DNA from: Eledone cirrhosa
Lineage: Eukaryota
Assembly (NCBI GenBank): GCA_964016885.1
Contig: OZ024747.1
Location: forward strand, 90,520,001 to 90,584,000
Direction of reading: 5' to 3'
DNA length: 64,000 bases
Below, piece by piece: positions 1-43,560 of this stretch. The notes beneath the pieces were generated by a model that ran no database searches, was not told the origin of the DNA, and saw only the letters and a program-made list of their open reading frames with translations. Each line of letters opens with the position of its first letter. Position 1 is the stretch's first letter. A program made the translations under genes and the position numbers.

Positions 1-1520
1 GTGTAACTAGAGTTACTGGTTACTAACAACAGAGCATCAGAACCAGTGTAACTAGAGTTACTGGTTACTAACATCAGAGCCAGTGTAACTAGAGTTACTG
101 GTTACTAACAACAGAGCATCAGAACCAGTGTAACTAGAGTTACTGGTTACTAACAACAGAGCATCAGAGCCAGTGTAACTAGAGTTACTGGTTACTAACA
201 ACAGAGCATCAGAACCAGTGTAACTAGAATTACTGGTTACTAACATCAGAACCAGTGTAACTAGAGTTACTGGTTACTAACATCAGAACCAGTGTAACTA
301 GAGTTACTGGTTACTAACAACAGAGCATCAGAGCCAGTGTAACTAGAGTTACTGGTTACTAACAACAGAGCATCAGAACCAGTGTAACTAGAGTTACTGG
401 TTACTAACATCAGAGCCAGTGTAACTAGAGTTACTGGTTACTAACAACAGAGCATCAGAACCAGTGTAACTAGAGTTACTGGTTACTAACATCAGAACCA
501 GTGTAACTAGAGTTACTGGTTACTAACATCAGAACCAGTGTAACTAGAGTTACTGGTTACTAACAACAGAGCATCAGAACCAGTGTAACTAGAGTTACTG
601 GTTACTAACATCAGAGCCAGTATAACTAGAGTTACTGGTTACTAACAACAGAGCATCAGAACCAGTGTAACTAGAGTTACTGGTTACTAACATCAGAGCC
701 AGTGTAACTAGAGTTACTAGTTACTAACATCAGAGCCAGTGTAACTAGAGTTACTGGTTACTAACATCAGAGCCAGTGTAACTAGAATTACTGGTTACTA
801 ACATCAGAGCCAGTGTAACTAGAATTACTGGTTACTAACAACAGAGCATCAGAACCAGTGTAACTAGAGTTACTGGTTACTAACATCAGAGCCAGTGTAA
901 CTAGAATTACTGGTTACTAACAACAGAGCATCAGAGCCAGTGTAACTAGAGTTACTGGTTACTAACATCAGAGCCAGTGTAACTAGAATTACTGGTTACT
1001 AACATCAGAGCCAGTGTAACTAGAGTTACTGGTTACTAACAACAGAGCATCAGAACCAGTGTAACTAGAGTTACTGGTTACTAACATCAGAGCCAGTGTA
1101 ACTAGAATTACTGGTTACTAACATCAGAGCCAGTGTAACTAGAATTACTGGTTACTAACAACAGAGCATCAGAACCAGTGTAACTAGAGTTACTGGTTAC
1201 TAACATCAGAGCCAGTGTAACTAGAATTACTGGTTACTAACATCAGAGCCAGTGTAACTAGAGTTACTGGTTACTAACAACAGAGCATCAGAACCAGTGT
1301 AACTAGAGTTACTGGTTACTAACATCAGAGCCAGTGTAACTAGAATTACTGGTTACTAACATCAGAGCCAGTGTAACTAGAGTTACTGGTTACTAACAAC
1401 AGAGCATCAGAACCAGTGTAACTAGAGTTACTGGTTACTAACATCAGAACCAGTGTAACTAGAATTACTGGTTACTAACATCAGAACCAGTGTAACTAGA
1501 GTTACTGGTTACTAACATCA
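1..1520. repeat. Tandem satellite of mixed 37-bp and 45-bp units (runs off window start)
   Basis: Unit ga(a/g)ccagtgtaactaga(g/a)ttactggttactaacatca (37 bp) and a variant with an aacagagc insertion (45 bp), repeated with near identity; ends abruptly at 1520. Confidence 0.98.
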
Positions 1521-11154: not shown

Positions 11155-11874
11155 TGTCATTGAACAAACTAAATTTGGTAAGGAAAATATCTTTCTACAT
11201 TTTTTAATGATTTTCGCTCCTTTCGTGTTTTTCTTTTTTTGTTTTTTTTAAAATTATATGTGTATATTCAACCAGTTTTTGGATCACACCAACAATCTGA
11301 CAGATTTGCAAAAAATGCCAACAAGCAATACAACAAAAAACTTAGCTCAAACTCATCAAGCACTGCCAACTCATATCATTATAGTTATCATCATCATCAT
11401 CACCATCATCATCATCATTATTTATCGTCCATTTTCTCTGCTACCAGTTCACTCTGTAAAGTGGTTGATAAGAAAATGGCATTCTACCATAGAAAACTTA
11501 CCATACAAAGAGTCAAGAGGACTCTTTAACTGTATTAAAGATATGGCAACTTCCCTAGTATATGTGCCATGATAAAATGCAATTGGTAGAACACAGTATT
11601 GTATGTAAGCAAGATGCAGGCATCTGGTCCATCTCAGAGATCAGTGGTTTTATATGAGTACTGTCTTGGTCTGTGAAGACCTGTTCAACCTTTGCTAGAT
11701 GTTGATGATTATGTCTGAATGTCTACTAAAGTTTAATCTTGTAGTATTTATGCATATGTATGTTACATGGGCTTCTGCTAAAGTCAGTTTTGCCCCAATC
11801 TGGATCTATCCATCTTGATTAGTGATCTCCCCCGTCTCAGCACCACAGACTCTCTTTCTATACATATATATAAG

Positions 11875-12067
11875 TTTATCCTGGGTTCAATCAGGGATAA
11901 CCACAGTAAGTAAGGTACTCAATACATAGCAGAGTATAAATATTTAATATAGAAATGGCTTCAGGACTAGAACTGTTTCATGCGGGAGAAATCATCAAGA
12001 AGCCCCTGATGATTTCTCCTGAATGAAACAGTTCTAGTCCTGTAGAAGCCATCTCTATATTAAATAT
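11875..12067. mobile_element. Penelope-like terminal-repeat element, family A, fold-back, with degenerate hammerheads
   Basis: Homologous to 42480-42612; inverted arms ~11940-11999 and 12005-12067; plus arm has ctgatga(12006)...gaaacag ttctagtc ctgta; TA-rich on both sides. Confidence 0.8.
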
Positions 12068-41416: not shown

Positions 41417-42025
41417 ACATAAAATGATGATGACAATGATATATATATGTGGAATTTTAAAACAGAGATACATCTAAATAACGTATATATGTCATGTTAT
41501 ATATACTGAAGGACCATCACCCTTAACTCACGGTTGGGTGTGGATGCATTCATGTATATGTGTGTGTCCGCATGTATCTGTGTGTTTCTAAATATATTGT
41601 TAATAACTCCCTCTGGTTGAGTAATCTTTGAAGTGTGGTGGCTGCTGGAAAGCTGCCATTACTCATACTTCTCGCCTCCTTCACCACCTCTTCTACGGCT
41701 TCGATATAAATACCCCCTCCGCCTCTGTGGTATTTTCTTCGGGGTTATAAGAGGCTTAGCTCTGTTTCTCGACCGTTATATCGCGTGACTATCTCCCCCT
41801 CCGCCTTTTGGGATTCTTTCTCACGTCGTGTAGACGCGTTCTTGAGACTAGTAAAATGAGGTATCCTCTTGATAAGTCGGCAGACCTCGCAGGGACTCTA
41901 TATCTTTATGATGTATTGTTTTTGTTTATGCCACGAAACTACGTAGTCGAGGAATCTAGGAGCAGTTTAGGTATGATACATTTTATTACTAATTATATCT
42001 AAATGTTTCTTCTCTCTTCATAATG

Positions 42026-42098
<73 letters not shown>

Positions 42099-42195
42099 GG
42101 TCCTTCAGTATATATAACATGACATATATACGTTATTTAGATGTATCTTTGTTTTAAAATTCCTCATATATATCATTGTCATCATCATTTTATGT
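41417..42195. repeat. ~100-bp inverted repeat pair (41417-41517 / 42097-42195) enclosing the family G element
   Basis: acataaaatgatgatgacaatg...ctgaaggaccat versus atggtccttcag...cattgtcatcatcattttatgt; about 2 substitutions and a TA indel. Confidence 0.92.
41864..41953 (+). ncRNA. Type I hammerhead ribozyme motif with U3-A8 core variant (family G)
   Basis: Stem I tcctc/gagga; core UUGAUAA 41869-41875; stem II gt(c)ggca/tgccac; GAAA 41935-41938; palindromic stem III actacgtagt; GUC triplet 41946-41948. Confidence 0.82.
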
Positions 42196-42296
42196 ATATA
42201 TATGAAGTATTTCCGTAGGAAAGGTAAAGGAAAAGAGAGTGCTCTATGTAGGCTACAGAGCTTTTTAGTTATGTAATAAATAACATAAAATAATTA

Positions 42297-42360
42297 TTTC
42301 ATTTACCAGTGGTTTCTTGAAGACAGATATTTATGTCTGTCTTCATTCACCAGAAGAAAA
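42297..42360 (-). ncRNA. Family B hammerhead motif with A6G core change (mirror of 43139-43202)
   Basis: Reverse complement reads ctggtga a tgaagacaga...tctgtcttca a gaaa ccactgg ta aatgaaa. Confidence 0.6.
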
Positions 42361-42561
42361 GTTATTTATGAAATAGTAATAGGGATTTGAAAACAGAGTA
42401 TAGGATAAAAGAAAATGAGGCTGAAATAAAATTGTGTATATGTATATATATATATAAACATATATATATATATATACACGTTATTCCGGGTTGAATCGGA
42501 GGTAACCACAGTAAGTAAGGTACTCAATACATAGCAGAGTATAAAAGTTTTAATATAGATG

Positions 42562-42612
42562 AGATTCTACAGGACTAGAACTGTTTCATTCTTTAGAAAT
42601 CATCAGGAATCT
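42562..42612 (-). ncRNA. Family A type I hammerhead motif (mirror of 42881-42931)
   Basis: Exact reverse complement of the plus-strand motif. Confidence 0.8.
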
Positions 42613-42880
42613 GGGTATCAAAAAATAAATATGGTATTTATAGGTCTCTTCAGGTGGTAGGAGAGGGTAGGGAGTGGGATGGGTAGAGGTCATTGGTTGA
42701 TAGAAAAGGGAATTCATTAAAAGCTAATTCTTTGAAGCTAAAATCTAAATTATAGCTTTAAAGAATTAGCTTTTAATGAATTCCCTTTTCTATCAACCAA
42801 TGACCTCTACCCATCCCACTCCCTACCCTCTCCTACCACCTGAAGAGACCTACAAATACCATATTTATTTTTTGATACCC

Positions 42881-42931
42881 AGATTCCTGATGATTTCTAA
42901 AGAATGAAACAGTTCTAGTCCTGTAGAATCT
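42881..42931 (+). ncRNA. Family A type I hammerhead ribozyme motif, intact core
   Basis: Stem I agattc/gaatct; CUGAUGA 42887-42893; short stem II ttc-taaa-gaa with a U.U pair at its base; GAAA 42906-42909; stem III acag/ctgt; GUA 42923-42925. Confidence 0.82.
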
Positions 42932-43138
42932 CATCTATATTAAAACTTTTATACTCTGCTATGTATTGAGTACCTTACTTACTGTGGTTACCTCCGATTC
43001 AACCCGGAATAACGTATATATATATATATATATATGTTTATATATATATATATATACATATACACAATTTTATTTCAGCCTCATTTTCTTTTATCCTATA
43101 CTCTGTTTTCAAATCCATATTACTATTTCATAAATAAC

Positions 43139-43202
43139 TTTTCTTCTGGTGAATGAAGACAGACATAAATATCTGTCTTCAAGAAACCACTGGTAAATGA
43201 AA
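43139..43202 (+). ncRNA. Family B hammerhead motif with A6G core change
   Basis: ctggtga; perfect 10-bp stem II tgaagacaga/tctgtcttca; gaaa ccactgg ta; homologous to 14938-15010. Confidence 0.6.
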
Positions 43203-43245
43203 TAATTATCTTATGTTGTTTATTACATAACTATATATATATATA

Positions 43246-43560
43246 TAGTGGTTAGAGCATTGGCCTTGCAATCAAAAGGTTGTGAGTTCAATTCTCAGAC
43301 CGGGTGATGTGTTGTTTCCTTGAGCAAGACACTTTATTTCACATTGCTCCAGTTTACTCAGCTGTAGAAATGAGATGATAGGGACTGGGGTCCCTATTCA
43401 TTTCCACTGTAAAGTGGACGTGGGGGTGCCACGGCAAAAAAGCACCCAGCACTCACTGTAAATGAAGTTGGTGTTAGGAAGGGCATCCAGCTGTAGAAAT
43501 CAAGCCAGAATCAGTTCCCATCCCACCCTTGCAAGCAGGGAAAAGTGGACGTAAAATGAA
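43246..43560 (+). mobile_element. SINE family 2 head joined to an RTE-related 3' module
   Basis: tagtggttagagcattggcc...gagttcaattctc head; later ggtgttaggaagggcatccagctgtagaaa and tail ggacgtaaaatga, the latter also reversed at ~16800-16885 and ~24305-24355. Confidence 0.75.

What the first reader, a model, noticed from the sequence alone, without database searches (positions are those of the whole stretch)
42266..43233. ~970-bp palindrome placing two hammerhead motifs on each strand
Arms of ~475-480 bp with a 12-nt spacer duplicate the family A element, the TA tract and part of a neighbouring family B element. Family B continues unpaired to ~42206 on the left only, so the inversion ran past the element into flanking DNA. 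About six substitutions between arms argue against a read fold-back artefact. Such palindromes are usually unstable; a transcript from either strand would form long dsRNA that competes with ribozyme folding.
Basis: partly seen in the sequence, partly recalled or inferred. Interest (0 to 1): 0.75.

Follow-up and report, generated by a model that had tools for sequence, protein, structure and literature searches.

The report
Nested two-family Penelope end palindrome
The 970-base mirror repeat is in the sequence and joins, back to back, the ribozyme-bearing ends of two related Penelope-type jumping genes, a layout common in this genome; its one unusual feature is that an older, already resident piece was likely copied again right beside itself.

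Summary
Confirmed: arms 42266-42740 and 42753-43233, a 12-nt spacer, six substitutions and two TA-tract indels. Each arm carries two hammerhead motifs; the family-B one has a core change (CUGGUGA). Families A and B are terminal repeats (pLTRs) of two sister Penelope-like elements with Hydra-clade motifs. The left-only 60 nt is not a random overrun. It is the family-B tail: 17 of 29 other B copies stop where the right arm stops and 12 where the left arm stops. Long-plus-short head-to-head pairs are routine here and in print, and this scan noted them before on other DNA. The unusual point is that the arms also duplicate A and a TA tract. No donor for this composite was found in the assembly, and the only other B copy with its private markers lies 59 kb away, so the duplication probably happened in place. 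Best reading: Penelope reverse transcriptase primed at B's inner start site on a local read-through RNA and the copy was pasted head to head (0.58). Rival: a DNA-level snap-back rejoining at a 5-nt microhomology (0.22). Short-read contig depth fits two copies; the centre and right junction were not seen in reads. No RNA evidence.

The parts
42203..42265 (-). Family-B tail (about 60 nt between the short and long ends), left side only; begins with a GCTC...GAGC hairpin
42266..42432 (-). Left family-B pLTR piece (B1-167), 5'-truncated into a TA tract; 7 of 146 sites differ from the family majority
42293..42364 (-). Family-B hammerhead motif, core CUGGUGA (changed at core position 6)
42433..42478 (.). 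Left TA tract between B and A
42479..42740 (-). Left family-A pLTR piece, long (tailed) end at 42479
42547..42617 (-). Family-A hammerhead motif, core CUGAUGA
42741..42752 (+). 12-nt spacer: upstream family-A sequence in the right arm's orientation; nearly the same centre as the A-only palindrome L039
42753..43014 (+). Right family-A pLTR piece, also with the long end (A-only palindromes have a short end here)
42876..42946 (+). Family-A hammerhead motif, core CUGAUGA
43015..43066 (.). Right TA tract, 6 nt longer than the left
43067..43233 (+). Right family-B piece, ending at the family's short end (B167)
43135..43206 (+). Family-B hammerhead motif, core CUGGUGA
43234..43247 (.). TA tract at the right junction, followed by a very high-copy repeat (SINE-like by recall) that lacks its first bases compared with the copy in L048
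42097..42195 (-). Left flank: inverted copy of 41417-41517 (2 substitutions, one 2-nt indel)

Best explanation
The palindrome is a head-to-head pair of nested ends of two sister Penelope-like retroelements, bounded by family B's two usual stop points, and it likely arose when a Penelope reverse transcriptase acting in trans copied a read-through RNA of this locus and the copy was joined back beside its template. Steps: (1) an old, 5'-truncated B end sat in a TA tract (age shown by divergence; residence inferred); (2) a young A end inserted into the TA tract just upstream (shown by structure and age); (3) a minus-strand RNA ran A-TA-B (inferred, no RNA seen); (4) the enzyme nicked the TA tract on the right, primed at B's inner start site and copied B167 back through TA into A (inferred from the end position and from Frangieh 2024); (5) the cDNA joined the resident A at or before the centre, a 3-nt CTA/TAG microhomology (junction shown, order inferred). 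It is most likely an inert by-product: any through-transcript is predicted to form one long duplex that hides all four hammerheads.
For: B ends are bimodal: 17 short and 12 long among 29 other copies; over all loci 26 of 45 ends at B163-169, 18 at 223-227, 1 elsewhere (window arms included). The right arm stops at the short end plus TA. All 8 A-only pairs compared site by site are long+short, while both A arms here are long, so B sets the ends. B and A run from their long end into RT and endonuclease-type ORF pieces (L063, L185) with Hydra motifs RWK, DKT and CxCX5C (PMC8557442 section 11). Two RT start sites make the tail, and uncleaved RNA is the template (PMC11167929, parts 1-2). No donor: the junction 24-mer and the B18/B23 26-mer occur only in the two arms; no other copy scored 98% or more; none in 200 kb of flanking DNA. 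Local lineage: the B51 24-mer occurs at 2 places and the B72+B83 26-mer at 3, all within 60 kb on C7, against 10 places on 7 contigs for the majority 26-mer. The spacer is in the right arm's orientation, against a simple snap-back from the left arm. A and B share an RCTC...GAGY hairpin just after the short end.
Against: B is old (median 5 of 146 sites from the majority; A 2 of 176) and both B ORF copies seen are broken, so a B-type start at A's time needs residual B enzyme or cross-family priming, and PMC3846280 found no cross-mobilisation. The arms share no derived change in A and the centre matches the A-only palindrome L039, as an A-insertion event would give. A's and B's short ends share AACTA, the only one in the 539-nt left template, so a DNA repair switch could also end there. 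L025 shows a fold-back that crosses element borders without family-typical ends. The right arm has the majority base at B51 where the left arm and L098 share a variant, which needs a reversion or a conversion.
Confidence: 0.58

Rival explanations
1. DNA-level overrun. A inserted as an ordinary long+short palindrome; during fill-in or later hairpin repair the right strand switched to the left arm, copied through the A tail, the TA tract and B, and rejoined the old A-short/TA junction at AACTA.
For: Centre as in L039; no shared derived change in A; AACTA is unique in the template and ends both short sites; B probably inactive by then; L025 and the 41417-41517/42097-42195 pair look like DNA fold-backs.
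Against: It would have to pass a 46-nt TA tract that matches the right flank far better. None of the 8 A pairs compared is long+long. L025 has a TA centre and an arbitrary end (B96), unlike this one. It does not explain the marker-sharing copy 59 kb away.
Confidence: 0.22
2. A new twin-primed insertion of a composite A-TA-B RNA from a donor elsewhere that is now lost, polymorphic or unassembled.
For: Both outer ends are family-B ends next to TA tracts; pLTR-driven mobilisation of passenger DNA in trans is published (PMC3846280).
Against: No donor found; the closest marker-sharing B copy is 59 kb away, unlikely if the source was remote.
Confidence: 0.13
3. Assembly or read fold-back artefact, or haplotype mis-join.
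For: No contig was listed across the centre or the right junction; the laid runs X1-X3 are one sample and may be the assembled one.
Against: Six substitutions and two indels between the arms; the TA/B junction contig is at 1.6-1.7 times flank depth in two runs; the ends fall on biological family ends and the spacer carries A sequence absent from the left arm.
Confidence: 0.05
4. A selected functional element (ambisense ribozyme RNA or dsRNA/siRNA source).
For: A through-transcript is predicted to form a duplex of about 470 bp.
Against: Single locus, no ORF, B core changed in both arms; many similar palindromes nearby; 0 Pfam matches among 120 of 156 candidate open segments of the window.
Confidence: 0.02

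Closest known systems
Inverted pLTR plus one-sided tail of endonuclease-bearing Penelope-like elements (PMC3846280, parts 1-4 of 5 read; PMC8557442, passages)
   Same: Head-to-head 5'-truncated copies, tail on one side only, short asymmetric centre, AT-rich target; passenger DNA mobilised in trans by pLTR ends.
   Different: Tail is 60-67 nt rather than 30-40; both arms carry a second family's end and a TA tract; the evidence points to duplication in place.
Hydra clade of C-terminal-endonuclease PLEs (PMC8557442 section 11 read)
   Same: Parent ORFs of A and B show RWK/RWR, DKT, a CxCX5C linker, hammerheads and (TA)n targets.
   Different: The palindrome has no ORF; no tree against reference Hydra proteins was built.
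Two-site internal RT initiation of Poseidon PAc (PMC11167929, parts 1-2 of 4 read)
   Same: Two fixed ends bounding a tail; hammerhead cleavage not needed.
   Different: Shown there in vitro for one lizard element on its own RNA; priming on another family's site was not described in the parts read.
Minimal PLE hammerheads, including pairs 100-700 bp apart on opposite strands (PMC4209133, part 1 of 4 read)
   Same: Type I motifs in pLTRs; B has a long helix II with an unpaired 5' base; opposite-strand pairs.
   Different: Two families nested per arm; B core changed.
Non-LTR retrozymes (10.64898/2026.07.22.740005, part 1 of 5 read)
   Same: Non-coding, hammerhead-bearing, PLE-related.
   Different: Retrozymes are tandem direct repeats of one unit; this is one inverted pair.

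Membership tests
EN+ PLE insertion (inverted pLTR + tail) | Terminal sequence is a pLTR that also precedes an RT/endonuclease ORF | tested here: met
   B continues into an ORF in L063, A in L185; ORF pieces 34-54% identical between the families
EN+ PLE insertion (inverted pLTR + tail) | Head-to-head inverted 5'-truncated copy | tested here: met
EN+ PLE insertion (inverted pLTR + tail) | Tail on one side, ends at two fixed family sites | tested here: met
   17 short and 12 long of 29 other B copies; 60 nt, longer than the published 30-40
EN+ PLE insertion (inverted pLTR + tail) | Target-site duplication or empty site | tested here: inconclusive
   TA tracts on both sides hide a duplication; no empty-site joint among the listed rows (most rows not shown)
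EN+ PLE insertion (inverted pLTR + tail) | GIY-YIG domain in the parent ORF | tested here: inconclusive
   No Pfam match for the fragments; Atlas feature hits at 0.96 to clusters with GIY-YIG in 23% and HTH_animal in 17% of members; weak blastp to Pfam-confirmed PLE ORFs, E 5e-6 at best
Hydra-clade PLE (parents of A and B) | RWK and DKT motifs | tested here: met
   B: RMRWKA and SDKTK; A: RIRWRA; DKT of A read by eye from the DNA
Hydra-clade PLE (parents of A and B) | CxCX5C linker before a C-terminal endonuclease | tested here: met
   B: CSCRKPEEC; A: CNCLNKEAC
Hydra-clade PLE (parents of A and B) | Placement in the Hydra clade on an RT tree | not tested
   No reference Hydra proteins were in hand; supplements of PMC8557442 not opened
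Type I hammerhead ribozyme | Intact core CUGANGA / GAAA / UH | tested here: met
   Met for A in both arms only; B arms read CUGGUGA
Type I hammerhead ribozyme | Hammerhead fold is the preferred local fold | tested here: not met
   A motif z -0.35, B helix II only, full transcript one duplex; no Rfam match
Type I hammerhead ribozyme | Self-cleavage | not testable with these tools
   needs a cleavage assay
Non-LTR retrozyme | Tandem direct repeats each with a hammerhead | tested here: not met
   only TA tracts are tandem here

The most novel reading that the evidence does not exclude
A young Penelope enzyme can prime at the start hairpin of an older sister family on a nascent read-through RNA and paste the copy next to its template. 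The dead B end here would then have been retro-copied locally twice (59 kb away, then beside itself): co-transcriptional, cross-family local retro-duplication of flanking DNA, which would also fit intron retention by these elements.
Probability: 0.25. Interest if true: 0.62.

Novelty: new variant of a known kind. Interest (0 to 1): 0.32.

Why it matters
The palindrome and its hammerheads are ordinary Penelope by-products. If the local re-copying holds, old element ends act as handles by which Penelope enzymes duplicate neighbouring DNA in place and possibly across families, which gives a genomic test of the still unresolved Penelope insertion mechanism (which RNA is used, where, and how the inverted arm forms).

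Tried and rejected
Rfam scan: 0 matches. Two patterns meant to find copies running past the long end: 0 hits for A, 15 for B with no ORF continuation seen. GIY-YIG loci: of 30 loci plus 20 longer stretches, none linked A or B in sense to their ORFs; the 1218-aa ORF upstream of A in L068 is a separate element with its own hammerhead. Dating the left junction by the 41417-41517/42097-42195 pair: I first counted 4 differences, and the test used that; the alignment shows 2 substitutions and one indel, no older than the arms, so the argument was dropped. Editing signature: the five arm-private changes in A and B are mixed (2 T>C, 1 C>T, 1 G>A, 1 A/C), no case for hyper-editing. Host gene: 0 Pfam matches in 120 of 156 candidate segments. 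Searches for a printed account of local or cross-family Penelope re-copying (listings and abstract starts only) showed none; many subscription papers are outside the library, and supplements were not opened. Look-ups of earlier findings by sequence, by near place and by one word set returned nothing.

Full report
Observation. The arms are 42266-42740 and 42753-43233 with a 12-nt spacer, six substitutions and two indels in the TA tract. Each arm reads, centre outwards, family A, a TA tract, family B. A motif scan finds four hammerhead-like motifs, two per strand; Rfam finds none at its cut-offs. The A motifs have the full core. Both B motifs read CUGGUGA where 24 of 29 other B copies have A; that this core change cripples cleavage is recalled knowledge, not tested. 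The genome is a 3.0-Gb assembly rich in TA repeats; an octopus is my recalled impression and that of earlier notes, not a tool result.

Is it real? Logan contigs of runs X1-X3 (one sample, perhaps the assembled one) cover the left junction at depth 9.6 with no differences. The private TA/B junction is at 16.4 against 9.6-10.9 for flank contigs in X1, and 14.3 against 8.3 in X2. By my arithmetic two arms with one popped difference predict about 1.7-1.8 times single copy and one arm about 1.1; 1.6-1.7 was seen. The centre and right junction were not seen, which proves nothing either way.

What A and B are. First-look candidates number 1,664 for B and 1,116 for A, of which 40 each were scored. 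Both families end at two fixed places next to TA. Of 29 other B copies, 17 stop at the short end and 12 about 60 nt further on. Over all loci fetched, 25 of 80 A ends fall at A189 and 46 at A254-256. Head-to-head long+short pairs are common: 8 of 8 A pairs compared site by site, and B pairs L008/L015 and L018. In L063 the B long end runs on into a broken RT/endonuclease ORF, and in L185 the A long end does the same; further A-linked ORF pieces lie in L191, L192, L197 and L199. The pieces show RWK/RWR, DKT and a CxCX5C linker, the Hydra-clade features of PMC8557442 (section 11 read), though Pfam does not recognise the fragments. So A and B are pLTRs of sister Penelope-like elements. The inverted copy with a one-sided tail is described in PMC3846280 (parts 1-4 of 5) and PMC8557442 (passages). 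PMC11167929 (parts 1-2 of 4) traces the tail to two RT start sites and finds hammerhead cleavage unnecessary. PMC4209133 (part 1 of 4) already notes hammerhead pairs on opposite strands 100-700 bp apart. Earlier notes of this scan reached the same reading on other DNA. Palindromes are not scarce: 58 self-centred ones of 200 nt or more in 1.12 Mb of fetched DNA (mostly chosen for these elements), and 6 in the 264 kb around and including the window.

What is different here. Both A arms are long, and the outer ends are B-long and B-short, so B defines the unit and A plus TA is a passenger. The arms share four changes from the B majority and none in A; the left arm has three further B differences and one in A, the right one in A. 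B is old (median 5 of 146 sites from the majority; the left arm 7) and A young (median 2 of 176; the arms 0-1) (both samples are best hits and lean young). The duplication therefore followed A's arrival closely.

In place or from a donor? The TA/B junction 24-mer and the B18/B23 26-mer occur only in the two arms. No other copy scored 98% or more, and none lies in 200 kb of flanking DNA. The B51 variant occurs at two places and the B72+B83 pair at three, all within 60 kb: the arms and L098, a small B insertion 59 kb away that lacks the B18, B23, B144 and B152 changes. The majority 26-mer lies at 10 places on 7 contigs. The simplest reading is an old resident B copy whose lineage was copied locally; gene conversion between neighbours is an alternative, and the right arm's majority base at B51 needs a reversion or a conversion.

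Mechanism. I favour priming at B's inner start site on a read-through RNA of the locus (0.58). The right end is a family start site; the spacer is A sequence in the right arm's orientation, which a snap-back from the left arm would not give; and a repair strand would have met a long TA tract first. A and B also share an RCTC...GAGY hairpin just after the short end, seen in 11 of 26 scorable palindromes (40 of the 58 were picked by hand, several from the same family, and the motif was defined after seeing some of them) against 0.9% of random positions, which makes cross-family priming plausible. Against it: B looks inactive by then; the centre matches the A-only palindrome L039; A's and B's short ends share AACTA, unique in the template; and L025 shows a fold-back centred on a TA tract that crosses element borders and ends at an arbitrary point. 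A DNA-level overrun gets 0.22, a lost donor 0.13, an artefact 0.05.

Function. A through-transcript is predicted to be one duplex of -801 kcal/mol that buries the hammerheads; locally the A motif does not fold better than shuffles. No RNA holder was listed, which says nothing on expression. No Pfam domain was found in 120 of 156 candidate open segments of the window. It is most likely inert.

Verdict. A known kind of structure with an unusual nested, probably locally copied make-up. Three searches (listings only) showed no account of local or cross-family re-copying; PMC3846280 reports trans-mobilisation of passenger DNA but no cross-mobilisation. Interest 0.32.

Noticed in passing
L025 897-1602 (G000:C14, about 43,440,060-43,440,760): 706-nt palindrome, 99.7% identical arms, centred on a TA tract; arms hold another hammerhead family's end, a TA tract and part of B; one arm stops at B96. 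Looks like a DNA fold-back across element borders or an artefact.
   Followed up: partly
L098 (G000:C7:90,503,223-90,503,420): Small B insertion 59 kb from the palindrome that shares three otherwise private variants with the left arm.
   Followed up: yes
window 41417-41517 and 42097-42195: 100-nt inverted duplication of a repeat tail and flank around a 508-nt repeat and a TA tract; possibly a fold-back at the TA tract.
   Followed up: partly
window 41518-42025; L148 2285-3264; L185 3246-4389: A third high-copy family that also forms long+short head-to-head pairs in TA tracts.
   Followed up: partly
L028, L035, L037, L039, L091, L092, L004, L196 and window 42948-42985: A short RCTC...GAGY hairpin follows the short end in about six different families; candidate shared signal for the inner RT start.
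   Followed up: partly
L011, L028, L098, L192: Insertions whose long arm is only the tail and does not overlap the short arm, so neither arm can be a fold-back copy of the other; fits two primings on one RNA.
   Followed up: partly
L153 2309-5122 (-), L068 5469-9122 (-), L168 2260-5525: Long uninterrupted Penelope-type ORFs (938 and 1218 aa, the latter with an asparagine-rich stretch as described in Adineta) and a 3.3-kb, 99.7% palindrome with ORF halves.
   Followed up: no
window 14945, 15775, 41215; 11859-12064: Further hammerhead motifs of related families and a diverged A-like long+short pair.
   Followed up: no
window 1-1520: Tandem array of 37/82/119-nt units at the window start.
   Followed up: no
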